The position numbers and the translations under genes are program-made. The notes beneath the pieces are model-generated. The model worked only from the letters and a program-made list of their open reading frames with translations. It did no database searches and had not been told where the DNA came from. Shown piece by piece: positions 6,599 to 52,827 of a stretch of DNA of 64,000 nt (its first letter is position 1; each line of letters starts with the position of its first letter). The stretch is from a virus: positions 11,089 through 75,088 of IMG/VR virus record IMGVR_UViG_3300036846_000489; one strand, written 5' to 3'.

Positions 6599-7011
6599 TG
6601 GCGAATATCGGTGTTTCAGAACTCCTGCTTGATCCCGACTTCGTGGACCAAGTGATTGTGCTGCGGCAGGTCGAAATCATGGGAGACGATGGTATTGCGG
6701 TCAGACAGCCGCAGTCTATCAATATCCTCGCATCCATTCAGTCCAACGATGACACCCTTCAGATGACGCCCGATCTTGCCCGCACGGAAGGGAGCTACGA
6801 GATCATCACCACATTCCCGTTGCTCACCGCTACCGACACGTCGTCGGCGGATGTGGTGGTGTGGAACGGCCGGCAGCATAAAGTGACTTCCGTTGCGCGG
6901 TTCGGAAATTTCGCCACCGGCTTCGGGCATTTCGAGGGGATCATGGAAATCATCTCGGTCCAGCCGGTTCCCCTGGACGCACTGGCACCGACATTCAGCG
7001 AGGGAACATGA
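6598..7011 (+). CDS. Head-tail adaptor/closure protein
   Basis: VSELLLDPDF..ADVVVWNGRQHKV; position in neck module. Confidence 0.65.
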   Translation: MANIGVSELLLDPDFVDQVIVLRQVEIMGDDGIAVRQPQSINILASIQSNDDTLQMTPDLARTEGSYEIITTFPLLTATDTSSADVVVWNGRQHKVTSVARFGNFATGFGHFEGIMEIISVQPVPLDALAPTFSEGT

Positions 7012-7232: not shown

Positions 7233-7867
7233 GCACAAGCGTTCCGAACGACAGCACGACCGGTGGCTACATCGTCGATGTCCCGCCGCCGCCGGCCACC
7301 GTGGAAGACCTCCAGAGCGCGCTCCAGCAGGCGGTGGCCGGACTGGCGGGACTGCCCGGCAGCCTTGTGCGGCCCCGCTGGCAGCCCGTCCCGCCGGCTC
7401 AGCCGCCGGTTGACGTGACCTGGGTATCCATCGGCGTCACGATGGTCGAGGCCGACGAATACCCCTACCTCCTGCATGTCGGCGGCGTCACGCTGGCCGG
7501 TGCTACCGCTCCCGGCTACACCATCATGCAGCGGCACCAGACAATTACCGTGGTGACCACGTTCTACGGTCCCCAGGCCGACGCTCTGGCGGCACAGGTC
7601 AGGGACGCATTCTATGTGCCGCAGAACTACGAAAATCTGTTCCCGGTCGGACTAAAACTTCGCACCATCCACGACCTGCAACGCGCACCGGAATTGATGA
7701 ACCAGCAATACGTGGACCGGGCCGATCTCAGAATGGAATTCCGTGCCATGATCGAGCGCGTCTACCCGATCCGCGATCTCGACGGCGCCGACTTCACCAT
7801 CAATACCGACCAAGGCAGCGAGACGTTTCAGGTTCGCGAGGATACAGTAGTCTATCCTGAGGGCTAA
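7229..7867 (+). CDS. Tail completion/terminator protein
   Basis: LPGSLVRPRWQP..FYGP..APELMNQQYVDRADL motif; precedes sheath. Confidence 0.7.
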   Translation: MSTSVPNDSTTGGYIVDVPPPPATVEDLQSALQQAVAGLAGLPGSLVRPRWQPVPPAQPPVDVTWVSIGVTMVEADEYPYLLHVGGVTLAGATAPGYTIMQRHQTITVVTTFYGPQADALAAQVRDAFYVPQNYENLFPVGLKLRTIHDLQRAPELMNQQYVDRADLRMEFRAMIERVYPIRDLDGADFTINTDQGSETFQVREDTVVYPEG

Positions 7868-39754: not shown

Positions 39755-41181
39755 TCAGTCTTTGGAAGCATAGGGCTGCACCTTTTGTCCGAGGAAATCG
39801 AGGTCAAGAACATTCAGGTTGTGGCGTTTGCACCAGACCTGAATACCCTGTTGCGTCCAGCCGACCTCAAGCCGTGACCACGTTTGCGGCGAGACGCCGG
39901 CGGGCATTTCCTTCAGGCACCTGGCACAGTGCATGAACTGGAAGATGCGGTTGGGATGGTCGGTCATATCGGACCCTCCGCATCACACCACACACACCGG
40001 CCGTCTACACCGTAGCGGTGCCTTCCGCTCGGCACACGGCAGGAAGTTTCTGATCTCACCGGCTTCGGTTCGACCAGATCGTCCACCTTGTGCTTGATGT
40101 ATGCCTGATCGTCGGAGAACGTGACCCACGAACGAACGTCGGGGAAGATACGCTGTCCGCATTCAGGGCAGAAGTTCGGCAGCCGGGGATTAACCCAGCA
40201 TAGCAGACAGATGCAGCATTCTGTGCGAATGAGCCGGAAGTGCGCTCTGGTCAGTGCCATTCCATTACTCCCGTCTGCTGCATCAGCCAGTGCTGGACGA
40301 CGACGTGGCGGTAGTGCCACATCGCCGGGTAGAAGGTGGTTGTGGTCATCAGAAACAGCTTCATTGTTTCAACCTCTGGCTGACATTGATCTTGGTGTCC
40401 GGACCAATACCGTCCTTTAGGGTTTCCGCGCAGTGTGCTTCGGTTTCGCCGGAGAAAATCATGACATCGACCGGCAGCCCAACTTCGCGACCGATGATGC
40501 GGATGAAGCTGTCACCCGGCTCTTTGCGGAACTGGTCCAGGTTGGCGAAACTCAGGCCGATCACCAGGATGCTTTTTCCGGTTCCGTCTCTCGCAATTGC
40601 TTTGATCATGAGGATTTCCTGTCCAGCTTGATGTCGTGGGTGCGGTGGCCGTATGATCTACCGGTTCTTATGGCATCGACCAGTTCCTCCATCAGTTCAA
40701 CAAACTCATGAGGGGGTGTGGTCGAGACCACGCGATTTTTCTTTTCTCCCGCCAGTCGATAGATCAGCAGCCAGTCACCGTCATCGCCTATTGCCTTGGC
40801 GAGAAACTGACCTACGGCATCAGCTATGAATTCATCCTCTTTGTCTTCGGTCATTTGGTGTCCTTTTCCTGTTTCCAGCGAAGTGCTGGTGCAGAGAGCC
40901 ACGCCCCACGGGACGCGCTCCCTGCATCAATGCTTCGTCTCCGCAGCGTCTTTTAAGGCGGTGAGTTTGAGGATTAATTTCACTAGCATCGTCAATAGGC
41001 TCGACCGAATTTCTGCGGTGTCCTTGTCGTCTTCCCCATAATGCCCAGCAACCCATATGGCGGTTAGTTCGGCGAGAACTGCGCCCTGTATGGCTGAGGA
41101 CTTGCCAGCCAGGATCGGCTTGATCTGACCGATCAGAGCGATTATTTCCTCTACGTCTTTCTTGGCGAAATCGGTCATCAA
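39755..41181 (-). CDS. Cluster of small early genes (39755-39967, ~39964-40260, 40361-40609, 40606-40854, 40927-41181), two with CxxC motifs
   Basis: Several ATGA-type overlaps; AAGGACACCAAATG start at 40854. Confidence 0.55.
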
Positions 41182-42221
41182 CGCACCTCGTAGTGGGAAC
41201 GGTTGGACTTGAAGCTCTTCCGCTGTTCCTCGGTAGCATTGACCAGTGTGTCCGCGATCCAGATCGACCGACCCGTGGCGTAGTTTCTCGGGTGTCCCAT
41301 GCGGATGTGGAACTGCGGACTTGCGTGGTGCCCGCCCAGACCTTCGCTCCGCTCCCGATGACCGCGTGCCAGAATAGCCGTGACATACGGCTCACTAAGC
41401 ACCCGGTCGTAGTGCGGGATCGGCGGCTTCCGGCTTTTCATCCTGGCACGTTGCAATTTCTCCGGTGGCCGAACTGTCTCCCGATCCACCCCGCGCGTGG
41501 CGAGGATCATCAGGCAACAGATAATCGGGTCACCGATATTGCAGCTTGCCGCCTCGTGGGCCGATTGTCCGTTGTTCTGCAAGGCACGGAATTCATCGTC
41601 GGCGACGAACCGCAGAATAGACGGTGCCACTTGGGAAATATGGTCAACGCCAAGTTCCGGTGGCGGCACCATGAACATGCCACGGTCACCGATTACCAGG
41701 AGTTGCTGGTAACCGAGCGTCAAGGGCTGAAGCTCGCAGACTTCGAAGGTCGTGTCGGAAGGACGATTGACCAGATAGACCGCTATCGCCTTGGTTTCTG
41801 GCAACACCACTGGCTGAGGGCCTGCGCCCTTCCAGATGAGGTTATGATCCCAAGTGTGGTAGCAAATCCACGGGTCGGAAAATGGGAAACCCAAGGCTCC
41901 CATATTCCACATCTTCCCGCCACGCTTCGCGCATTCCGAGATGACCAAGTTCGGCAAGTGACCGAAGTCGATGACCCTGCCGGCTGTCACCGCATCGCGG
42001 CACCGAAGGGAGATCAATTCAACCTCCCTCTGTGTCGAGGCGTATTCACGGCTCTCGGGAAGCAACCGCATGTTCGATGACTGGAAACCGGTGACGCGAA
42101 AATCGAGCACCGCGTCCCGCATCTGCGTGACGGTTGGTCTCCACTCCATGTCCAGCGACATAGTTAGCTCCTGCCCGAAGATCACCTGACCTTCGGGAGT
42201 TCTCATTAGTCTCGGTTCCAT
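41178..42221 (-). CDS. Hypothetical protein with C-terminal H.SP..H.R.GH.R motif
   Basis: Start at AAGGACACCAAATG (42221). Confidence 0.7.
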   Translation of the reverse strand: MEPRLMRTPEGQVIFGQELTMSLDMEWRPTVTQMRDAVLDFRVTGFQSSNMRLLPESREYASTQREVELISLRCRDAVTAGRVIDFGHLPNLVISECAKRGGKMWNMGALGFPFSDPWICYHTWDHNLIWKGAGPQPVVLPETKAIAVYLVNRPSDTTFEVCELQPLTLGYQQLLVIGDRGMFMVPPPELGVDHISQVAPSILRFVADDEFRALQNNGQSAHEAASCNIGDPIICCLMILATRGVDRETVRPPEKLQRARMKSRKPPIPHYDRVLSEPYVTAILARGHRERSEGLGGHHASPQFHIRMGHPRNYATGRSIWIADTLVNATEEQRKSFKSNRSHYEVR

Positions 42222-42291
42222 TTGGTGTCCTTCTCTGTGTCCCCTGGTCGGGGCGAGGACAGCACCGATGCCGGCGCTGCCTTCGTCCAGA

Positions 42292-42909
42292 TCAGCGAAT
42301 ATCAACCTTTTTCGCCGCGCCTTGCTCAAGAGCGGCTTTGAGTATCTGTTGGGCGGCATCGCGTTCTTCGAAGGTTGGCTCCCTTTCCGGCAGAACCTCG
42401 GCAAAACTTCCCATTATGAAACTCTGCGGGTCAGAGGTCTTTTCATCCTTTACCCCGGTGCATTTGCCTTTCGCGTTTCTTACGACTTCGGCTTGTGCCA
42501 CGGCGGTAAGGCGTTCACCGGTATCGTCGTTGCGCCATATGATCTGTGCTATGACGACTTCTTGGCGATCTTCCCGTTGGCTCGGCATGACCTCGGGATA
42601 TTCTGGGTCCGGTTCTCCTGGCTTGCTGCTCGCAATCCAGGCTTCGCCGATGAAGGCGACGGCGAACCCGTTGTCGGCTATACAGATGAGCCGGGCCATT
42701 TCCCGGTGTCCGCGTTTTTCCTTGTCGTCGTAGTTGTTCATTCCGCCGACACCTATCGGGGTAACTCTATGGGCGGCATGAACCACGAATAGCGGCATAA
42801 GGTGTCCTTCTTTGGTGATACACCGCTTGGCATATTCTAGATCAAGCCGAAGTTGTTTGGCATAATCGAACTTTCCCTTGGCGATGTTTGGTCCGGTTTT
42901 TCTCGGCAT
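42292..42909 (-). CDS. Hypothetical protein
   Basis: AAGGACACCAGATG start; EAW..PS..DR.EV motif. Confidence 0.7.
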   Translation of the reverse strand: MPRKTGPNIAKGKFDYAKQLRLDLEYAKRCITKEGHLMPLFVVHAAHRVTPIGVGGMNNYDDKEKRGHREMARLICIADNGFAVAFIGEAWIASSKPGEPDPEYPEVMPSQREDRQEVVIAQIIWRNDDTGERLTAVAQAEVVRNAKGKCTGVKDEKTSDPQSFIMGSFAEVLPEREPTFEERDAAQQILKAALEQGAAKKVDIR

Positions 42910-42982
42910 CTGGTGTCCTTCCTGTTCTCCCCTGGTCGGGGCGGTGACAGCCACGGAATATCCTTGGCTGCCCCCGTCTGGA

Positions 42983-43597
42983 TCAGGGCAAATACCTCTC
43001 AGCGACGTTCTCGCGCTTAATGAACTTCAGTAGGGCTGAATAGAATTCTTCCAGCCGTTGCTCGCCGTCCTGTTGCGACAGCCGTTGTTGCCAATGCTCC
43101 AGGAAATCCCAGGCATTGATCAACGCTCTTTCCCGGTCATAGAACATGAGCGGCCGCCAGCAGTAATCCAGCGACAATTCCGACCACCAGGAACAGGCTG
43201 AAGCCGCCCTGTCCTGGCCGTTCCCGATCCCGCCTTCTCTCGGTGATTTCGATGTTGACCACCACGCGCCGGGGCGGCCCGCCTGAAGGCGGGGGAGGAT
43301 CGTTGTGGAAGGAATTGCCGTCCAGTAAGTAGTCGAATGAGCCACGCTTCGGCTCCTTGTTCTTCAGCATATGCCCAACTCCTTCTTGGTCCGATCAACC
43401 AGATTTTCCCACTCCTTGCAGGCATCTTCCAGCCAGTTGATTGACTTGGCCGATCCCTGAAATTCGTAGGTATCGCGATCAAAGTGAAGACCGTTGAGCA
43501 CCTCTCTTGCCGCCGCTCTCATCGAACAGGCAACATCATACATCAATTGCTTGTTCGCTTTCATAGCGACGGCCTGATCTTCAGTTCTTTTCGGCAT
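42983..43597 (-). CDS. Three small early genes (42983-43147, 43137-43370 with TM helix, 43364-43597)
   Basis: Overlapping starts/stops; motif RBS at 43597. Confidence 0.55.
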
Positions 43598-43702
43598 GGG
43601 TTTGGTGTCCTTCTCTATTCCCCGACCGACTGGTCGAGGCGACAACAGCACCGCGCAAGGCGGGCTGTTCCCGTCAGGATCAGCACGACAGTCTGGCGAC
43701 CG

Positions 43703-44314
43703 TCAGTGGTATCTCCGGTGGTTGCCGTCGGCGGACCAATTTACTTCGTGCCAGTCCGCGACCGGCCCAGGCACGGTCAGAACCGGCACGGCCAATGCCC
43801 CGATGATCCCAGCGGACGCCCTGCCCTCTACACCGGCCAGGACGATCAGCGTGCCACGAGTAAGGAGCGTGGCCTTTTGGTTCGGGAACAGAACCGGCTC
43901 CTTGGTATTATCGAGGCGATCAAGGCTGCTTTCGAATTCGGCAATTCCCTGTTCCCCCAGGCGGGTTGCCAGGGTGACAAGGGCGCCGTGGCTGTCAGCT
44001 TGAAGAATGAAAGACGCCATGGTTGACCACAGTGCTGCCCGGTCTTCCAGGTCGGTATTATTTATCTCTGGGACCGGGTCAGACCACCGAAGCATGTCGC
44101 AGATCATTCCCCGGTTGGGGGAGGCAAATACCACATGCCGCCCATAGCAGGCCGGGAGTGCTAGTTTCCCAGCTTCCTCTGAAGCGATGGCATCGACAAC
44201 CTCCTGCAAGGTCGGAATACAGCGACGCAGTATTCGCTTCGTGCTCGGCTTTTGCGCGCGGCCTTTCACCACATCCTCTAAGGTCATGGTGGCGACGTGT
44301 TCTCCTAGTGTCAT
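43703..44314 (-). CDS. Hypothetical protein
   Basis: AAGGACACCAACCCATG start. Confidence 0.65.
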   Translation of the reverse strand: MTLGEHVATMTLEDVVKGRAQKPSTKRILRRCIPTLQEVVDAIASEEAGKLALPACYGRHVVFASPNRGMICDMLRWSDPVPEINNTDLEDRAALWSTMASFILQADSHGALVTLATRLGEQGIAEFESSLDRLDNTKEPVLFPNQKATLLTRGTLIVLAGVEGRASAGIIGALAVPVLTVPGPVADWHEVNWSADGNHRRYH

Positions 44315-44391
44315 GGGTTGGTGTCCTTCTCCGTCCTCGACTTCTGGTCGAGGCGGCGACAGCGCGGCTTCCCGTGCTGTCTCCGTCCAGA

Positions 44392-45549
44392 TCAGGGTCG
44401 TCTCCTGATGACGTCATAATCGTCGTGAACAACGAAGCCGCGTGAGGCGTCGCCGCGTTCATGCTCCGGTCGCCACCAGCGTTTGCCGCCACAGTCCGAA
44501 CAGACCCAATTATCCGGATCGTCCGGCCCAGCGTCCGGCCACGGCAGCCATTTCGGTGGACCGTGGTTCGGTTCGAAGTTGTGGACGCACCCGGCGATCC
44601 TGGAATAATCGCGGGCTTCCTTGTTGTGGCAGTAGTGACCACGAACTTCGTGCCGGCGACGCGGCACAGCGTCACCCGCCGGGGTGCCGATCAGCCTTAA
44701 GGTCGGCACCGGATCGATCTCTATGGTCACCGTGGTATGTGCCATGTAGGCCCGGAACTTGCCGCTGATGAAGCCAGGGGCATTCGGCAGAGAGTTCCGG
44801 TAGCTGGTCAGCGACGGCCGGTTGAGCATCAGCAGGATCGCGATGATCGTCCGAAAGTCGCCAATCGTGCCACGTGCCATGGACGCCATGCCGCCGTCAG
44901 CGGTCCATTTATGGTAGGATGGATGGGCCGGATTGAGCGGCGTCTGTTCCATGACGTTGAACTCTCGCAGCACGCGCCGTTCGTCGTTGGTCAGGTTGTC
45001 CCAGGTTGATCCCCACATAAGCATGTCGAGGCTCATCCGAGAGCACCCGCACAGACGGGCGAATTCCAACTGATCGTCTATCGGCCATTCGGTTCTTAGT
45101 CGATACTGCATTCCGGTCACCTGCGGGTCAGTGACCGGGTTGGCCACCGTGCCGCCGCAGATGGTATTGATCCGATTATGGTCGATCAGATACCCGACCG
45201 TGTGATCGGCACTGTCAAGTTCGCCATACCAGCCGGTATTTTCATACCGTCCTGGATCAGCGTCGCGTAGCACCTTCCAGTAAATCCACGAAGGCCACTC
45301 TATCCAGGTGACCTCGAAAGGTGGTCTGGCGAAGCCGTGTTCCCGCACCAGAAGTGAAGGAATATCACGCACGACCTGGGCAATACGCTCCGCGGCCCGC
45401 TCGTCAAAGACGAACTTATGGGCGGCACGCATGGAGCGTTGAAGCATGTCCATGGTTTTCGGATGGACGAACCGCTCCTTGGCCGAAAACTTATGAGCCA
45501 AAAAGCGGTCAGCCAGTATTGGCCCCCGCTTGGTAGGTGTTTTGGCCAT
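44392..45549 (-). CDS. Hypothetical protein with RRH.VRGH..W..H.RG C-terminus
   Basis: AAGGACACAACATG start; RPPF..WIE motif. Confidence 0.7.
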   Translation of the reverse strand: MAKTPTKRGPILADRFLAHKFSAKERFVHPKTMDMLQRSMRAAHKFVFDERAAERIAQVVRDIPSLLVREHGFARPPFEVTWIEWPSWIYWKVLRDADPGRYENTGWYGELDSADHTVGYLIDHNRINTICGGTVANPVTDPQVTGMQYRLRTEWPIDDQLEFARLCGCSRMSLDMLMWGSTWDNLTNDERRVLREFNVMEQTPLNPAHPSYHKWTADGGMASMARGTIGDFRTIIAILLMLNRPSLTSYRNSLPNAPGFISGKFRAYMAHTTVTIEIDPVPTLRLIGTPAGDAVPRRRHEVRGHYCHNKEARDYSRIAGCVHNFEPNHGPPKWLPWPDAGPDDPDNWVCSDCGGKRWWRPEHERGDASRGFVVHDDYDVIRRRP

Positions 45550-45624
45550 GTTGTGTCCTTCTGTTCTCCCCGAGCATGTCTGATCGAGGCGGAAACAGCC
45601 ATGCTGCTTCCGTCCGGATCAGGC

Positions 45625-45650
45625 AAAGAAAAGGGGAGCCGAAGCTCCCC
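45625..45650 (-). terminator. Intrinsic terminator inside the early array
   Basis: GGGGAGC-TTCG-GCTCCCC-TTTTCTTT on -. Confidence 0.8.
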
Positions 45651-45681
45651 ACAAAGTCTGGGTCGGATATTTTCTGCCGGT

Positions 45682-46320
45682 CTACGCCGACCGACGCCGC
45701 AACAGGGTCAGGCCGATCAGGCCCATCCCGAGGATCACAAGCGAGGCAGGCTCCGGCACGGCCGTCGCCGAAGCACTGATGTCACCCGCAAAGCTGGCAT
45801 TGAAGGCGCCAATTGTGCTGCCGTCCAAGGCAAGGGTGGGCAGCAGATTGGTGAACGCCAGATTGAACGAGCTTGGGGGCACCAACTCGTTGGCCGGAAT
45901 GACGTTGCTGGCCAACGTGAGGCTCTCCGGGGGGTTGTTGACATTGACTGTCAGACCCGGCCCACCATTTGCCCCAAAGGCGGCATCGGTGAACGTGCCA
46001 GAGAGGAAGTTACCCGTGCATCCGGCAGCACTTGAGATACAGAAGCTTCCCGAGTAATGCTGGATGATGTTGCCCGCTACCGTGATTGCCGCATCGATAG
46101 AATGCGCGGAGAGGGTCATCATGGCGCCAGGAATGGCACCGAGAATACCGCCGCCCAGCAAAGCTAGCTGGTTGGTGTAACTGATATTCGTCACGGTGCC
46201 ATTGTCGGTCGCTACCACGGTATTCGTCGTGGCCTCCTGAGCGAAAGTCGTAAGCAAGGCGGCTTCCGCTACTGTCGGCAAGGCCACGGCGATGGTGGAG
46301 GCAAGCAAAAGTGCCTTCAT
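45682..46320 (-). CDS. PEP-CTERM sorting-domain surface protein
   Basis: Signal peptide MKALLLAST..AEA; C-terminal VPEPASLVILGMGLIGLTLLRRRSA. Confidence 0.92.
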   Translation of the reverse strand: MKALLLASTIAVALPTVAEAALLTTFAQEATTNTVVATDNGTVTNISYTNQLALLGGGILGAIPGAMMTLSAHSIDAAITVAGNIIQHYSGSFCISSAAGCTGNFLSGTFTDAAFGANGGPGLTVNVNNPPESLTLASNVIPANELVPPSSFNLAFTNLLPTLALDGSTIGAFNASFAGDISASATAVPEPASLVILGMGLIGLTLLRRRSA

Positions 46321-46430
46321 CTGGTTTCCTTTCGGGTTGGTGTGAACACTCAGTCTCCCCGGCTTTGCTGGCCGAGGCCGGAACGCCCGCCACAGTTTCC
46401 TGTGGGGACGCTCCGGTCAAGGTCAGATTT

Positions 46431-46640
46431 CTACCGTCTCCGGTGGCTGGCATCTATAGGTTCGATGTCGGTCTCAACCTGACGGGGATCGCGGCCCTGT
46501 TGTATCCGCGATATCCTGGCGGGCAGGATGATATCCCGATTGCAGTCGTCGCAGCACCGGCCATGGTTGATCGGCTCCGCGTTGTTCCCGAACCGGGTGT
46601 ATGGCCGCCCGCAGATCGTGCAGGCTCCGTTCTCATCCAT
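46431..46640 (-). CDS. Zn-finger protein
   Basis: CTICG..GNNAEP..GRCCDDCN. Confidence 0.7.
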   Translation of the reverse strand: MDENGACTICGRPYTRFGNNAEPINHGRCCDDCNRDIILPARISRIQQGRDPRQVETDIEPIDASHRRR

Positions 46641-47136
46641 CCTTGTTCTCCTCTTCCTTGCGCGGCATTCCGGAAAGAAGCTGACCGTAGGTGTGGAGCA
46701 CCTCGGTCACCGGCTTGCCGTCTCGGAAGAACGTGATGGTTCCCGCCGCCTCTGAGGCGCGAGAGTTGCCCCAGGCGTCGAACTCGGCACGATCCATCCA
46801 AATGATGTTCCGACGCAGCCATTCGACGGTGACCACCGGATCGACCGTGTAGTAGCCTCCCGGCACGTCTTCGTCTTCGACCTCTTCGCCCACAACCACA
46901 CCGTTGCCGGCCATTGGCTGGTCGGTGCGGAATGCGCAGAAGAAAAAGTGCATGGTTGGTTTCAGCAAGCCTTCCTCGTCCACGAACATCACATCTCCAG
47001 ACGGGAACCGAAAGGCCGCTTCGATCCAGCCACCGATATAGTCACCGACGGTAGGAAGCTCGCCTTCGGCACTTTGTATGCGATATTCGACCTCACGGAT
47101 TTCCCGCTTCACGGCATCAATGAGAATTGCCTTCAT
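46633..47136 (-). CDS. DUF3846-like protein
   Basis: KAILID..IGGWIE..FVDEEGL..AGNGVVVG. Confidence 0.75.
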   Translation of the reverse strand: MKAILIDAVKREIREVEYRIQSAEGELPTVGDYIGGWIEAAFRFPSGDVMFVDEEGLLKPTMHFFFCAFRTDQPMAGNGVVVGEEVEDEDVPGGYYTVDPVVTVEWLRRNIIWMDRAEFDAWGNSRASEAAGTITFFRDGKPVTEVLHTYGQLLSGMPRKEEENKDG

Positions 47137-47220
47137 GGGTATTTGGTGTCCTTCCATTCAGTTTCCCCAGGCTGGCTGAGGCGAGGACAGCCACCGGCCT
47201 GAGCCGGCGCTGCCTTCGTC

Positions 47221-48357
47221 TTAGTCAGGGTCTATCGGCTCGTCGTGATCGTAGTTCGGATCGGTCAGAACCTCTGGCCGGAACGCGGCCAGCTTCTCCT
47301 TTTCGCATTTCCCGCACATGTATCCGAGAGGAATTCCCCTCGCATCCAGTCCGACCCACGGCCACTCGCCGCTGCCGCACGGGCATTCAGTCAGCATCGC
47401 CATCATGGTTCTCCGTCGTGGCCAACGGCTTTCTGGTCCGCCACGCCATCGACGGTGCGATGGCGTCCGGCGTATTCCCACTGGACCTGATGGAAGCGTT
47501 CGATATTCGCGATGTCACGAATATCCAACTTGAACCCCAGAGCCAAGTAGATTAGTTCCAAATCGCCTTGGTTGAGCCGGTCGAGGTTGGGCAAGGTGGC
47601 ATGAGGGATGCCACAGTGCTCAATGATCCACTCACGGATGACGCGGACCAGTTCGTATTTGTCTGGCCGCATCTTGGGAGGAAGCGACATCACGCTGCCT
47701 CCCGAGGGTCTTCAGTATTTATCGGCATTTGGTGTCCTTTCCAAAGTCCTCGGCGAACTGGCCGAGGCGGCGGTAGCCACGACAAGCGCAGCTACCCCCG
47801 TCCAGGTCAGATCAACTTGATCTCGACAGAAGTGACCGTGTAGGGGCCGTTGCAGCCAAGGCCGGGAGAGCCATACACGGCCTTCCCGTGGGTCAGTTCC
47901 CAGAAGCTTTTCTGCCGAGCCTGAAGGTAGACATCATCAAGCTCACCTTCGCAGATCGACTTTGTCTCCCAGGTCTGGCCCTTGGCAGCGGTGCCACGAA
48001 GGGTGCAGTTGTAGAGGCGGATCATGCCGGCCTCCTTATGAACTCTCGGCCCGGCCTGGACCGAATACCATGGATCAGATCGTCATGTTCTGTAGCGAAC
48101 CGAACCATGGCACGGCGAAGGTCCAGCATCACGTCGCAGATTTTCCGCAGGCGATCCACCTCTTTCTGATCCATCGGAAACTCCGACAACTGCGCCATGG
48201 CATCACAGAGGTTCGATACCATCGCGTTCATCCGGCCCAGGATCAGGTCTTTCTGATCGGTCTCTTTCTGGTATTTCGCCATCAACAAAGCCATGCTGGA
48301 ACGCGCTTCTCGCGCTTCAGCCTTCGCCTGTTGCAGCGGTGTAGGGTTTCGAGGCAT
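47221..48357 (-). CDS. Small early genes (47221-~47406 Zn-finger, 47403-47690, 47807-48025, 48022-48357)
   Basis: CPCGSG..DARGI..C..C; coupled starts; motif RBS at 48357. Confidence 0.6.
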
Positions 48358-48432
48358 TTGGTGTCCTTCCGTTCTCCAGCGCAAACGCTGGTGCAAAGAG
48401 CCACGGGCCATTGCTGACCCGCGCTCCTTGCA

Positions 48433-48903
48433 TCAAGGTTTGTTTGCTTCTCGCGCTATCCGCTCGTCTTCCTTCGTCGCATAATGAGGAAGTTCGCGCA
48501 GAGAAAGGCGGGGCCTTCCAGGCTTTTTTGGCCCAGGTGTTCTTTCCCGTTTCTTTTCCGGTGCTCGCTTTCCCAGCCTATGGGCTTTGGTAGGCGCAAA
48601 AAGTGTGAGTTTGCCGTAGACAAACCGTCCTTCGGTATCGAATTGACGAATGACTTCTGGCCAGTGGTTGACGTATCTCAGCCAGTGTTTTGCCCCTTCT
48701 TCTAGCACATAAGCTCGGTATTTATAGACTATCGCTGCCCGAGCGCCTTCGCGCATTAACGAACGAGCCCAAGGGCAGTCGCACGGATCGTTGGGGCAGG
48801 CGCCCTTGATATCAACAAGAAGAGCCACGACAGGTCTATTCTTCTTCGCGTCCACTATGGGTAGTCCTAGAAAGGCTGGATGGTTTCTCATCATGGATGC
48901 CAT
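48433..48903 (-). CDS. Basic hypothetical protein
   Basis: AAGGACACCAAATG start; DP..C..A..W.RY..FD motif. Confidence 0.65.
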   Translation of the reverse strand: MASMMRNHPAFLGLPIVDAKKNRPVVALLVDIKGACPNDPCDCPWARSLMREGARAAIVYKYRAYVLEEGAKHWLRYVNHWPEVIRQFDTEGRFVYGKLTLFAPTKAHRLGKRAPEKKRERTPGPKKPGRPRLSLRELPHYATKEDERIAREANKP

Positions 48904-48996
48904 TTGGTGTCCTTCTCTGTTTCCTGGTCCGGGTCTGGCCCAGGCGGAAACAGAAACGGCCCCCGAAAGGGCCGCTCTGCTACCGTCACGGTCAGA

Positions 48997-49263
48997 TCAT
49001 CCCCGCCGCGTGATGGTCACGTCGTATCCCTTGTCCACGATTTTCTGGATCAGAATTTCCAGGTCTTCGTGATCGTCGGGGAAAAGCATGTGCAACAGCT
49101 TTTTCACCTTGGCGGGACGCGGCTGGGCGTTGCCGTTCTCGATCTGCGACAGATAGCCATTGGACAATCCGGCACGTTCCGCGAGAGCGGTCTGAGACAA
49201 ACCGCGTTCCTCACGGGCTTGCCTGATCTTTTCGCCCAGGTCGGGGCTGTCGAAATTCACCAT
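48997..49263 (-). CDS. XRE-family HTH regulator
   Basis: LGEKIRQAREERGLSQTALAERAGLSNGYLSQIENG. Confidence 0.9.
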   Translation of the reverse strand: MVNFDSPDLGEKIRQAREERGLSQTALAERAGLSNGYLSQIENGNAQPRPAKVKKLLHMLFPDDHEDLEILIQKIVDKGYDVTITRRG

Positions 49264-49265
49264 GG

Positions 49266-49481
49266 TCAACCTCCTGTCTTCCACCATCGGCCGTGATCGC
49301 CCAGAGTGTATTTCTGGCCGACCCCGACGCCGAGGCCAAAGCCGAACAGAAGATGGCATCTCAGGCACATCATTGCCCACGGCCCCCGACGGGTTGCTCC
49401 ATCAACAAAGTCGGTGTTGAGGGAGCCGCGGCAGATGGCACAGGCAACAGGCTTGCTGCCTTGCCAGTAAAGCTTGGTCAT
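49266..49481 (-). CDS. Zn-finger protein
   Basis: C.IC..FVDG.T..GPWA.MC..C..G.GLG.G.GQKY. Confidence 0.7.
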   Translation of the reverse strand: MTKLYWQGSKPVACAICRGSLNTDFVDGATRRGPWAMMCLRCHLLFGFGLGVGVGQKYTLGDHGRWWKTGG

Positions 49482-49566
49482 TTGGTGTCCTTTCCGTTTC
49501 CCCCGATCCGCTGATCGAGGCGGTGGCAGCACCGCACAGCGGCGGGCTGCCCCCGTCCGGATCAGA

Positions 49567-50121
49567 TCATTCCATCCAGAAACAATTATACCGTTCGCGT
49601 TTCGCCATCCGGCACTTCAGGTTGTTCGCCTCGGCGATCCCTCGCAGATAGGCGAACCACTTCGCACTGGTCTGACCCGTGTGATCGCTGAGTTCCTTTC
49701 TCGAAACCCCCTGCGGCCGGCGAGATTGCTCGACTGCCCAATCGACGAACCCGGCGGGCAGTTTGGAGAGGCTGGGACCGCCCTTGATCTCCGGCCCCCG
49801 GTATTCCCCAGGCTCGACTTCTTCCGGCTTGGGAGAAGCCTCAGCGGCCTTCCTGGCAGCCTTCTTCGGCGCCGGCGCTTTCTTCGCGGTCGGTGCCGCC
49901 GCTTTCTTCTTCTTCGCAGCCTCGATACGCACGACGTTGCTTCCTTCATCGTCAGGAAGCGGACGATCAATCAGGCACCACTTGCCTTCAGCATTCTGTC
50001 CCGGCATGTGGTCGGCACCGAGCAGACGCAGACCGGAGCGCTTGAACTCCTTCTCCATGTCTTCCTTGCTGTCCCATGTCCGAGTTTGTGCCTCGACAAT
50101 GGTCATGCGTGTAGCGGCCAT
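49567..50121 (-). CDS. K/A-rich protein with DUF3489-like winged-helix domain
   Basis: AAKKKKAAAPTAKKAPAPKKAA linker; RPQGVSRKEL..TG. Confidence 0.6.
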   Translation of the reverse strand: MAATRMTIVEAQTRTWDSKEDMEKEFKRSGLRLLGADHMPGQNAEGKWCLIDRPLPDDEGSNVVRIEAAKKKKAAAPTAKKAPAPKKAARKAAEASPKPEEVEPGEYRGPEIKGGPSLSKLPAGFVDWAVEQSRRPQGVSRKELSDHTGQTSAKWFAYLRGIAEANNLKCRMAKRERYNCFWME

Positions 50122-50231
50122 GAATGTGTCCTTCTGTCCGTGGTGGAAATTCCCGGGACTGGCCCAGGCGGAAAAAGCGTGGGGCAGAGGTTTCCCCCTG
50201 CCCCGAGTTGTTTCCGTCACGGTCAGTCAGA

Positions 50232-50651
50232 TCAGGCGCGCTTGCGCACTGCGATCTTGGTCAGCTTGAACACCGGCTTGCCGCCAGAGACGCTGTAGGC
50301 GAGGCCGTTGCTCGTGGCCAACCGTTCTACCCATGGCCGCCACGCCACTTGGTTCTGTCCGGCTCGGCGCGCCAGCATGGCCCGCGTTACCCCTCCCGGA
50401 CTGGACGCCATCTCCAATACCATCTTCGCGAAATCCTTCGGCAGGATGGTATCGTTGACCGGCGGCATCGGCGTTCTGGCTTTTCTCGGCGCTCTGGCTT
50501 TTCTTTCTGCCCGAGGCTTCCGAGCCGACTTCTTCGCTTCCCGGCCCGGTTTCGGGCCTTGACGCCCCCCGGCCACTACCTTGAACTTCTCTGGCACCGC
50601 AGCCATGCGGGCTGAGGCGCTGTTCTTTTTCTTGATTACGGTCTTAGCCAT
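50232..50651 (-). CDS. Basic protein with DUF3489-like domain
   Basis: SSPGGVTRAML..AG..AWRP. Confidence 0.6.
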   Translation of the reverse strand: MAKTVIKKKNSASARMAAVPEKFKVVAGGRQGPKPGREAKKSARKPRAERKARAPRKARTPMPPVNDTILPKDFAKMVLEMASSPGGVTRAMLARRAGQNQVAWRPWVERLATSNGLAYSVSGGKPVFKLTKIAVRKRA

Positions 50652-50762
50652 TGTCTTAACCCTCTTGTTCGAAGACGCACGCCCGCAGTCGGGACGTGCC
50701 CCCGGCATACTGGCCGAGGCCGCAGCACCACCACGGTTTCCCGTGGGGTGCTCCGGTCCGGG

Positions 50763-52110
50763 TCAGGTATCGAAGTCGCGGCGATGCGCCGCTAGGATTT
50801 CCGCGATTTCCTCTGATGGGATCGGCTCGGCCCGATAGAGGATATCGATGTCCGGCACTTTGCTGATGATCATCCGGTAGCCGGGTGGCATTTTCTCCAG
50901 CAACATGAGAATGGTTGCTGCCACGTCGGCATTTTCATCGTTTACCATCCGTTTCTCCTTGCCCTAAAAAGCGAAAGCTGAGACCGTGATTGCCGTCGTT
51001 CTCCCCGACAAAGGATATCGCTGGATGCCCCTCGATCAACAGAAGGTCTTCGTAGAAGCTGTCCCATTCGTCGATCACGGTATCCATCTCTTCCCCTTCT
51101 TTCGGGTAGTTCTCGGCTATGTAGGCGTCGAGCGACATCTGCCGAGCCAATAATACGGCGTTGCCTTCTTCCTGGGCATTCACCCGGATCGCTTGCATGT
51201 AGCCTTCGTCTCCTATCAGGATGACGGTGTAGGGTTGCATTTGGTGTCCTTTCTCCCGAACCATTCTGGCCCAGGGAGAAACGTCGTCCGCAGACGACGC
51301 TTCCCTCACAGGTCAGGCTTCTTGGGGTTCGCCAAACAATTCCTTCCACATCTCGACCGTGGAGAACTGTTCGACCAGCTTCTTCGCCTCGTCCTCTGGC
51401 TGCGGCTCTATGCTCATGGTTTCGTAGCTCTTGACGAAGAGGTAGAACCGGGAGCTTGCGGTGCGATACAGGATCGCATGATCCCAGTGGAGATACTGGC
51501 CGAGGTCGCAGATCGGCTTTCCCTTATCCGTATCGTAGAGAACGCCGTCGATTATTTTCTGCATTTGGTGTCCGTCCTTCTGTCTCCCGTGCCAACCACT
51601 GGCCCAGGCGAGGACGGCCACGGTTCCCCGCGCCGCCTTCGTCTTGGTCAGATAAGTGGTTTCCATCCACCCCATGGGGGAAGCTCTTCGCCCCACCGTT
51701 TCTTCGGCTTCACCCTCTTGCTGCGTGCGGTCACCGCCCGATCATGGGCGGCTCCCAACGCGGCATCCGACATTGGTTTCTCTTTCGCCCGAGACCAGCT
51801 ATCGCTTGGCCCCACACGAAGCCGAACCTCTGGCACGCTTCCATAGGGCAGACCCTTCGCCTTGGATTTCCGGTTGGGATTTCCCTGACGAAGGAACTTC
51901 CTGCCCTTCGGATACGACCAGTTAATCCGAGACTTTTTCTTCACTCGGAATAGGCTCGAATATGACCGACCACTCGGGGTTTGATCCTTCCGGGTTGCAT
52001 CTGATTACGATCTGCTCTCCGGGAGAAAGGTCGTCGAGAAACTCGACCACCCGCTGAATGATGGCGAACCTTGGTTCTTCGTATTCGCGCTTGTTGGCGA
52101 CTTCTTCCAT
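50763..52110 (-). CDS. Small early genes (50763-50948, 50935-51240, 51313-51564, 51648-51773, 51922-52110)
   Basis: Motif RBS starts; KIIDG.LYDTDK..LYRT..FYL in 51313-51564; 50763 and 51922 share PG..EPIPSEE. Confidence 0.6.
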
Positions 52111-52798: not shown

Positions 52799-52827
52799 AT
52801 CATAGCAAATTTTACCAGGTTTGTCAA
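52799..52827 (-). promoter_or_regulatory. Strong sigma70 early promoter
   Basis: TTGACA-17 bp-TATGAT. Confidence 0.88.

What the first reader, a model, noticed from the sequence alone, without database searches (positions are those of the whole stretch)
44335..50720. Most hairpins carry a built-in mutually exclusive second fold
The 3' arm (CCUCGRY) has a second complement just downstream, before the RBS. Examples on +: cctcgac-ttctg-gtcgagg (44335), cctcggc-gaactg-gccgagg (47748), ccccgatc-cgct-gatcgagg (49501), ccccggc..gccgagg (46357, 50700), cctgg..ccagg (48923), ccagcg-caaa-cgctgg (48376). The complement tracks changes in the arm. Inference: after cleavage, or when a terminating ribosome melts the 5' arm, the downstream mRNA refolds into a protective 5' hairpin or a switch.
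Basis: partly seen in the sequence, partly recalled or inferred. Interest (0 to 1): 0.75.

Follow-up and report, generated by a model that had tools for sequence, protein, structure and literature searches.

The report
Two-state hairpin linkers between phage genes
Sixteen gaps between early genes of a 75-kb soil phage carry an RNA linker with two conserved, mutually exclusive folds, a long hairpin holding the upstream stop codon and a short hairpin before the next ribosome-binding site; the folds are real but their function is untested.

Summary
All 14 type-A linkers (window 42219-51651, minus strand) and both type-B linkers carry a short hairpin ("H2"). Its 5' strand is the 3' strand of the main hairpin's basal helix ("P1").

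- **H2 tracks the arm.** Cognate arm and downstream pairs fold at -12.2 kcal/mol, against -9.5 when swapped and -7.0 when shuffled.
- **A family exists.** A covariance model found 41 more copies in five other IMG/VR phage records. Across 55 copies, P1 and H2 both show compensatory changes, including three-way covariation of the shared nucleotides.
- **The stop codon sits in P1.** The upstream stop codon lies inside the P1 5' strand in about 70% of copies.

No trigger is needed in this phage. P1 is predicted to form on the nascent RNA (P = 0.92). H2 then replaces it once its downstream strand exists (13 of 14 minimum-energy folds; difference about +4.8 kcal/mol). In the relatives the two states are nearly equal in energy. 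Predicted RBS accessibility is the same in both states, so RBS gating has no support. Cleavage and 5' protection remain untested.

There is no Rfam match. The closest published analogue is the SAS/ESAS motifs of cluster K mycobacteriophages, whose function is also unknown. The scan's index held no look-alike on other DNA.

The parts
51562..51651 (-). Type-A linker E01, from CUGA to the AUG. P1 5' strand 51646-51651; 3' arm core 51599-51610; H2 hairpin 51586-51608.
   Evidence: Model R1 hit at 76.5 bits; anatomy and fold.
51238..51316 (-). Type-A linker E02. H2 hairpin 51255-51275 (9 bp, 3 of them G.U).
50649..50766 (-). Type-A linker E03. H2 hairpin 50700-50719. An extra hairpin lies before a non-standard RBS.
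50119..50226 (-). Type-A linker E04. H2 hairpin 50152-50168 (CCUGGG/CCCGGG). The apical hairpin is terminator-like.
49479..49565 (-). Type-A linker E05. H2 hairpin 49501-49520 (CCUCGAUC/GAUCGGGG).
48901..48995 (-). Type-A linker E06. H2 hairpin 48923-48944.
47726..47810 (-). Type-A linker E07. H2 hairpin 47748-47767 (CCUCGGC/GCCGAGG).
47134..47228 (-). Type-A linker E08. H2 hairpin 47165-47181 (CCUCAG/CUGGGG). P1 is CUGACU/AGCCAG.
46318..46426 (-). Type-A linker E09. H2 hairpin 46357-46377.
45547..45622 (-). Type-A linker E10. H2 hairpin 45568-45589. This is the only window copy whose minimum-energy fold keeps P1 (perfect CUGAUC/GAUCAG). It sits just after a terminator-like hairpin.
44312..44395 (-). 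Type-A linker E11. H2 hairpin 44335-44353 (CCUCGAC/GUCGAGG). The stop codon UGA at 44392-44394 lies inside P1.
43595..43683 (-). Type-A linker E12. H2 hairpin 43620-43639.
42907..42986 (-). Type-A linker E13. Minimal H2 42929-42941 (CCCC-gacca-GGGG).
42219..42295 (-). Type-A linker E14. Minimal H2 42241-42253.
48355..48442 (-). Type-B linker B1. Different sequence, same architecture. H2 48376-48391 (CCAGCG/CGCUGG) abuts the main stem and overlaps a weak UUG/CAG extension.
40852..40930 (-). Type-B linker B2. H2 40875-40889 (CCAGC/GCUGG).
52799..52827 (-). Sigma-70-type promoter (TTGACA-17-TATGAT, TG-extended) upstream of the array. It is the likely source of the polycistronic transcript.
   Evidence: 11 of 12 matches. 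No promoter-like site falls inside any linker.

Best explanation
Each element is a structured RNA linker between cistrons of the phage's leftward early operon.

**Anatomy (shown).** In RNA sense the parts run in this order:
- a basal helix P1 (CUGAYC / GRYCAG) whose 5' strand usually contains the upstream stop codon;
- an internal loop;
- helices P2 and P3 with a variable tip;
- a second hairpin H2, formed by the internal-loop and P1 3' strand (CCUSGRY) pairing with a complement 3-8 nt downstream;
- about 7-10 nt of A-rich spacer;
- a standard RBS, AAGGACACCAAAUG.

P1 and H2 are mutually exclusive, and covariation supports both.

**Folding order (shown by prediction only).** The fold is sequential. 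P1 forms on the nascent RNA. H2 takes over once its downstream strand is made, and a terminating ribosome unzipping P1 would also free that strand. In this phage the end state is two abutting hairpins.

**Proposed steps and function (inferred).**
- The unpaired CCU of the internal loop acts as a toehold for strand displacement.
- The design keeps the C-rich untranslated spacer base-paired at every stage.
- It gives every cistron the same insulated initiation context.
- It does not switch the RBS on or off.
For: **Main hairpin**
- 98.2% of cells pair, against 77.5% when shuffled. Covariation score is 0.614 against 0.208. Slid controls pair 30-51%.
- All 5 P1 pairs show changes on both sides.
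- P1 variants include CUGACC/GGCCAG, CUGAUC/GAUCAG, CUAACC/GGUUAG, CUAGCC/GGCUAG, GCGACG/UGCCGC and UGAACC/GGUUCA.

**H2**
- Swap, shuffle and covariation tests all favour it.
- The shared nucleotides covary three ways: (C,G,C), (U,A,U), (A,U,A) and (G,U,A).
- H2 is more stable on the mRNA strand than on the antisense strand: -8.9 vs -7.3 kcal/mol, p 7e-6.

**Order of folding**
- P(P1) is 0.92 when the downstream strand is absent.
- H2 wins in 13 of 14 full linkers in the window.
- The family median energy difference is +1.7 kcal/mol, with H2 favoured in 36 copies and P1 in 18.

**Context**
- The stop codon lies inside the P1 5' strand in about 39 of 53 copies, and exactly at positions 2-4 in 33.
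- The linker is conserved across six phage records whose shared proteins are only 28-64% identical.
- Type B and a third type in L054 repeat the architecture with different sequences.
Against: - All folding evidence is thermodynamic prediction plus covariation. No probing or expression data exist, and no RNA run holds the stretch.
- The insulator or always-paired function is inference. Nothing here measures Rho loading, decay or translation.
- Alignments A2 and A5 were fitted to the tested structures and contain a few opposite-strand or spurious rows.
- Copies are related to one another, so covariation counts overstate the number of independent events. At least 10 distinct compensated classes exist for each helix.
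- If H2 simply wins at equilibrium, it is unclear why P1 is maintained so strictly.
Confidence: 0.55

Rival explanations
1. This is the first reader's first option: a processing site with a self-capping product. The full P1-P2-P3 helix (about 20-24 rungs with internal loops) is cut by host RNase III or by a phage or host site-specific endoribonuclease, as at the T7 early intercistronic sites. The freed 3' strand then folds with its downstream complement into a 5'-terminal hairpin, which protects the downstream cistron from 5'-end-dependent decay.
For: - The position between cistrons of a phage early operon resembles the T7 RNase III sites (established knowledge, recalled from memory).
- The long irregular helix exists only in the P1 state.
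- The basal part is conserved in sequence as well as in structure across six phages, which could mark a protein recognition site.
- H2 would begin at or near the new 5' end.
Against: - In this phage the P1 state is predicted to be rare at equilibrium (mean P 0.08). The substrate would exist only briefly.
- Tip length varies widely, and E10's upper stem is only about 9 bp.
- The phage encodes no RNase III.
- No RNA data exist to show 5' ends.
Confidence: 0.2
2. This is a ribosome-actuated coupling device. The ribosome terminating at the stop codon inside P1 flips the linker from P1 to H2. That flip shortens the single-stranded distance to the next SD or hands the ribosome on, so downstream initiation depends on upstream translation.
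For: - The stop codon lies inside the P1 5' strand in about 70% of copies. When the stop is UAA or UAG, the 3' strand carries the compensating change.
- The two states are nearly equal in energy in the relatives, as expected for a switch.
- H2 reduces the single-stranded spacer before the SD to about 7-10 nt.
Against: - Predicted SD and AUG accessibility does not differ between the states, and does not rise when the 5' arm is blocked.
- In this phage H2 forms without any ribosome.
- About 30% of copies have the stop codon upstream of P1, and E10 follows a terminator.
- Every gene has its own strong SD.
Confidence: 0.12
3. The linkers act mainly at the DNA level as cassette boundaries. They provide repeated homology, or hairpin recombination sites like integron attC or the T4-type PeSL, that shuffle small accessory genes between related phages. 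On this view the RNA folds are secondary.
For: - Elements separate cassettes of 1-3 genes.
- Homologous cassettes occur in a different order in relatives, each still preceded by an element.
- The linker is more conserved than the proteins.
- The layout of basal helix, internal loop, second helix and variable tip recalls attC.
Against: - No tyrosine recombinase is present in the complete genome.
- There are no GTTRRRY/RYYYAAC boxes (sequence).
- No promoter lies in the elements, so the PeSL criterion is not met.
- Abundant G.U pairs and the sense-strand bias argue for selection on the mRNA.
- H2 has variable sequence and loop length, unlike a protein operator.
Confidence: 0.08
4. The element is a static two-hairpin structure. 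Only the upper hairpin and H2 ever matter, and P1 pairing is a by-product with no function.
For: H2 plus the upper hairpin is the minimum-energy fold in 13 of 14 window copies.
Against: P1 covaries at positions that H2 does not use: the outer CUG/CAG becomes CUA/UAG, GCG/CGC, UGA/UCA and others, and 53-55 of 55 copies pair at these positions. In 18 of 54 family copies P1 is the more stable state.
Confidence: 0.05

Closest known systems
SAS / ESAS motifs of cluster K mycobacteriophages (Pope et al. 2011, PMC3203893; 2025 survey, PMC12699233)
   Same: A conserved motif sits immediately upstream of many start codons in one orientation. In about half of the cases an imperfect inverted repeat with a variable spacer precedes it. 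The motifs lie mostly in non-structural genes and are conserved across related phages. Their function is still unknown.
   Different: The sequences differ: the SAS is GGGATAGGAGCCC, whereas here it is AAGGACACCAA. ESAS is a 17-bp inverted repeat with a 4-13 bp spacer. In what I read, those papers describe no embedded stop codon, no second overlapping hairpin and no covariation-supported alternative fold. The phage lineages are unrelated: the published ones infect an actinobacterial host, whereas this is a soil phage of unknown host.
RNase III processing sites between the early genes of phage T7 (recalled from established knowledge, not tested here)
   Same: Both are irregular hairpins with internal loops between cistrons of a phage early polycistronic mRNA. 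The sites share sequence, and a structured end is left on the products.
   Different: Cleavage is unproven here. The long helix competes with a built-in alternative hairpin. The stop codon lies inside the stem, and a standard RBS follows at a fixed distance.
Sequential or metastable RNA folding, as in hok mRNA and the MS2 maturation-gene leader (recalled from memory)
   Same: An early-forming helix is replaced by a later, mutually exclusive one as the transcript grows or is processed.
   Different: In those cases the refolding gates an SD or an antisense target. Here predicted SD accessibility is unchanged. The element is also repeated 16 times in one operon.
Integron attC sites and cassette arrays
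   Same: Small cassettes in the same orientation are separated by imperfect hairpins with a conserved base, an internal loop and a variable tip. Cassette order differs between relatives.
   Different: There are no R-box consensus sequences and no integrase. The element carries the next gene's RBS, and selection acts on the mRNA strand.

Membership tests
Any Rfam family | A match at or above a family's gathering score. | tested here: not met
   0 matches over the whole window on both strands.
SAS/ESAS (cluster K mycobacteriophages) | SAS consensus GGGATAGGAGCCC (at most 2 mismatches) just upstream of start codons. | tested here: not met
   The start-associated block here is AAGGACACCAA(AUG). 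Criterion taken from PMC12699233.
SAS/ESAS (cluster K mycobacteriophages) | A pair of imperfect 17-nt inverted repeats with a variable (mostly 4-13 bp) spacer next to the SAS. | tested here: inconclusive
   An inverted repeat lies upstream of the start motif. However, its arms are about 20 nt or longer, its tips run from 3 to more than 30 nt, and a second hairpin sits between it and the RBS.
T7-type RNase III processing site | An intercistronic irregular helix of about two turns with an internal loop. | tested here: met
   The P1-P2-P3 helix has about 20-24 rungs, but only in the P1 state.
T7-type RNase III processing site | Cleavage by RNase III in vivo or in vitro. | not testable with these tools
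   No RNA run holds the stretch.
Integron attC / gene cassette | R''/R' boxes (RYYYAAC ... GTTRRRY). | tested here: not met
   The basal strands are CTGAYC ... GRYCAG.
Integron attC / gene cassette | An integron integrase (tyrosine recombinase) in the same replicon. | tested here: not met
   no PF00589 match in the complete 75,088-bp genome.
Riboswitch- or attenuator-type expression platform | Two mutually exclusive helices. | tested here: met
   P1 and H2 share 1-5 nt in 52 of 54 copies, and both covary.
Riboswitch- or attenuator-type expression platform | One state sequesters the SD or AUG, or forms an intrinsic terminator. | tested here: not met
   Accessibility is 0.615 vs 0.605 (p 0.78). 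Blocking the 5' arm has no effect. No U-tract follows P1 or H2.
PeSL (promoter-early stem-loop) cassettes of T4-type phages | An early promoter inside the repeated intergenic motif. | tested here: not met
   no sigma-70-like site falls inside any linker. The only strong promoter is at 52827-52799. Non-sigma-70 promoters are not covered by that scan.

The most novel reading that the evidence does not exclude
The linker is a natural, genome-repeated strand-displacement device. The internal loop serves as a toehold. The terminating ribosome, or a nuclease, acts as the actuator that flips P1 to H2. Each passage of a ribosome or each cleavage would then reset the junction. The energy balance between P1 and H2 (-8 to +11 kcal/mol across copies) would set cistron-specific expression or decay within one operon.
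Probability: 0.2. Interest if true: 0.8.

Novelty: new variant of a known kind. Interest (0 to 1): 0.62.

Why it matters
Repeated start-associated motifs and intergenic hairpins in phage genomes, such as SAS/ESAS, have been catalogued for years without a known mechanism. This family offers a well-defined case:
- 57 copies in six phage records;
- two competing helices, each with independent covariation;
- three-way covariation at the shared bases;
- a stop codon built into one helix.

Hypotheses about intercistronic RNA refolding, processing and insulation therefore become directly testable with a few constructs. If the design works as an insulator, it would also be a natural counterpart of the synthetic intergenic parts used to balance operons.

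Tried and rejected
- **RBS gating by the switch.** Predicted accessibility of the SD and AUG is the same with P1 forced, H2 forced or the 5' arm blocked. Rejected as far as thermodynamic models can show.
- **A fourth strand.** Pairing of the freed 5' arm with the spacer or SD appears in some minimum-energy folds (E01, E02, E05, E11), but it is sporadic across the family.
- **P1 and H2 coexisting as an H-type pseudoknot.** The connecting loop would be only 0-4 nt in many copies (for example CCUGG-aucag-CCAGG), so this is sterically implausible (sequences).
- **P1 tracking by duplex energy in the window.** There was no signal (p 0.44), because the outer pairs are constant. Position-wise counts and the family alignment did show the covariation.
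- **Expression data.** No RNA holder is listed for this stretch.
- **INPHARED phages by blastn.** No match.
- **GTDB genomes by pattern.** 24 single hits, of which only one weak model match (L283, E about 4e-4 to 2e-3), so there is no host clue.
- **Metagenome scan.** One extra fragment, L300.
- **Broader viral scan.** No further members.
- **Pfam and PHROGs on the cassette genes.** Almost all are unknown: one HTH_3, one DUF3846 and one PEP-CTERM.
- **Phage-encoded RNase III or tyrosine recombinase.** None found.
- **The scan's own index.** No look-alike on other DNA.

Full report
**Setting.** The window is bases 11089-75088 of a complete 75,088-bp virus record with direct terminal repeats. 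Its DNA is held by soil-metagenome runs. Genes between about 39 and 53 kb run on the minus strand, downstream of a near-consensus sigma-70 promoter at 52827-52799. They are mostly small and of unknown function; Pfam found one HTH_3, one DUF3846 and one PEP-CTERM protein. Groups of one to three overlapping genes are separated by a repeated linker.

**Anatomy.** I found 14 type-A linkers (window 42219-51651) and 2 type-B linkers (48355-48442 and 40852-40930). All lie on the minus strand, and there are none elsewhere in the genome. In RNA sense a type-A linker reads as follows:
- CUGAYCNNGACGR;
- a variable hairpin tip;
- YGCCYSRRYCAG;
- 3-8 nt;
- a complement of CCUSGRY;
- an A-rich spacer;
- AAGGACACCAAAUG.

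The long hairpin has a basal helix P1 (CUGAYC/GRYCAG, usually with an A.C mismatch opposite the last base of the stop codon). Above it come an internal loop and then helices P2 and P3.

**Check of the observation.** The small hairpin (H2) uses the internal-loop and P1 3' strand as its own 5' strand. I tested whether this exceeds chance in three ways:
- Swap test in the window. Each arm folded with its own downstream segment gives -12.18 kcal/mol. With other elements' segments it gives -9.47 (z -5.1, p <= 5e-5), and with shuffled segments -7.03.
- ViennaRNA on whole linkers. 13 of 14 minimum-energy folds contain the upper hairpin plus H2 side by side.
- Family comparison, described next.

**A family in other phages.** Pattern scans of IMG/VR found two contigs with the same linker. 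A covariance model of the main hairpin (R1) then found it in five virus records, one of them a complete 70.6-kb genome. A 1.2-kb metagenome fragment also matched. After dropping opposite-strand hits and the two type-B copies, 55 type-A copies remained. Shared proteins between these phages are only 28-64% identical, and homologous cassettes occur in a different order. The linker's basal parts are nevertheless conserved.

**Both helices covary.**
- P1: 53-55 of 55 copies pair at each of the five main positions, with many compensated variants. These include CUAACC/GGUUAG and CUAGCC/GGCUAG, where the stop codon is UAA or UAG.
- Tool count for the whole main hairpin: 98.2% paired against 77.5% in shuffles. 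Covariation score is 0.614 against 0.208. Slid controls pair 30-51%. A2 contains a few opposite-strand rows and was fitted to the model.
- H2 presence: 50 of 55 copies have at least 5 arm-to-downstream pairs.
- H2 swap test: the family-wide swap test gives -10.98 against -8.98 kcal/mol (p <= 5e-5). It is also significant inside records L273 and L275, borderline in L274 (p 0.05), and without power in two records whose arms are uniform.
- H2 compensated classes: these include CCUCGAC/GUCGAGG, CCUGGG/CCCGGG, CCUUGC/GCAAGG, CCUGUGCC/GGCAUGGG, CCUGAUC/GAUCAGG and CCUGCG/CGCAGG.
- H2 tool count on a second model alignment: 94.2% paired against 83.7% shuffled. Five of 7 pairs change on both sides. 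Slid controls pair 22-59%.
- Shared arm nucleotides covary with both partners at once: (C,G,C), (U,A,U), (A,U,A) and (G,U,A).
- H2 is more stable on the mRNA strand than on its complement (p 7e-6). Together with the variable sequence and loop length, this argues against a DNA operator.

**Mutual exclusivity.** H2 overlaps the P1 3' strand by 1-5 nt in 52 of 54 copies. A pseudoknot that keeps both helices would need connecting loops of 0-4 nt in many copies, which I judge implausible.

**Which fold, and when.**
- Nascent RNA: when the downstream strand is absent, P1 pairs have a mean probability of 0.92, above 0.5 in 54 of 55 copies.
- Window, full linker: with the downstream strand present, forcing P1 costs on average 4.8 kcal/mol more than forcing H2.
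- Family: the median difference is +1.7 kcal/mol, with H2 favoured in 36 copies and P1 in 18.

The predicted pathway is therefore sequential: P1 forms first and H2 displaces it. The unpaired CCU of the internal loop is an obvious toehold, though that step is inference.

**Stop codon.** The stop codon of the longest upstream frame lies inside the P1 5' strand in about 39 of 53 scorable copies, and exactly at positions 2-4 in 33. A terminating ribosome would necessarily open P1 as well.

**What the alternation does not do.**
- Predicted accessibility of the SD-AUG block is the same with P1 forced and with H2 forced (0.615 vs 0.605, p 0.78).
- Blocking the 5' arm, as a terminating ribosome would, does not raise SD accessibility.
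- No U-tract follows either helix, and no promoter lies in the linkers.
- The genome has no tyrosine recombinase and no RNase III gene.

**Interpretation.** The functional claims are unproven.
- The ribosome or cleavage trigger is not required by thermodynamics in this phage.
- RBS gating is not supported by prediction.
- Processing followed by a 5'-terminal protective hairpin remains possible. It has no evidence beyond the analogy with T7.
- My preferred reading is a sequentially folding, self-insulating junction that keeps the C-rich spacer paired at all stages and gives each cistron a uniform initiation context. Only its structural half is shown.

**Comparison with known systems.**
- No Rfam family matches.
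- The closest published analogue is SAS/ESAS in cluster K mycobacteriophages: a start-associated motif preceded by an inverted repeat, with function still unknown in 2025.
- The present family differs in sequence and lineage. It also has an embedded stop codon and a second, competing hairpin.
- I class it as a new variant of a known kind (phage intercistronic structured repeats and alternative-fold RNAs).

**Earlier scan notes.** The scan's notes on this genome are first-reader notes only. No look-alike on other DNA was on record.

Noticed in passing
window 47690-47728 (-): The standard RBS and AUG of linker E07 open a 12-codon mini-ORF (MPINTEDPREAA*). Its UGA overlaps the GUG/AUG start of the 96-aa gene at 47403-47693, which has its own GGGAGG SD. 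This looks like a leader peptide with stop-start coupling.
   Followed up: partly
window 50181-50204 (-): The tip of linker E04 is an intrinsic-terminator-like hairpin (a 10-bp GC stem followed by ACGCUUUUUC) nested inside the main hairpin.
   Followed up: no
window 45633-45650 (-), next to E10 at 45547-45622: A terminator-like hairpin follows the PEP-CTERM gene and lies a few nt upstream of E10. E10 is the only window copy with a perfect P1 and a P1-favoured fold. No stop codon is embedded there.
   Followed up: partly
window 50226-50236, 49565-49571, 48995-49001, 47810-47816 (-): Several linkers are preceded by UGAUCUGA or UGAUCUGACUGA. These give stop codons in two reading frames at the cassette end, with the true stop sometimes 4-8 nt upstream of P1.
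   Followed up: partly
L033, L108, L082, L016, L115 (IMG/VR contigs): The block AAGGACACCAAAUG also follows repeated promoter-like motifs (for example TTCTAAAG...TATAAT) in unrelated phage contigs with 34-59% GC. It appears to be a widely used phage initiation region, not specific to this linker.
   Followed up: no
L054 about 6860-6930 and 7410-7480 (+): A third linker type has different sequences but the same layout: UGACYU.../...AAGCC or GGCC basal pairing with an A.C mismatch, a main hairpin, an overlapping small hairpin (CCGGU/ACCGG or CCGAU/AUCGG), and then AAGGACACC-AUG.
   Followed up: partly
window 41178-42909 compared with L272 2286-5164: Homologues of the adjacent cassettes after E13 and E14 occur in the opposite order in a relative, with another cassette between them. 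Each is still preceded by a linker, which suggests cassette shuffling at the linkers.
   Followed up: partly
window 45682-46320 (-): A 212-aa protein with a C-terminal PEP-CTERM motif (Pfam E 5e-6) is encoded as one cassette of the array.
   Followed up: partly
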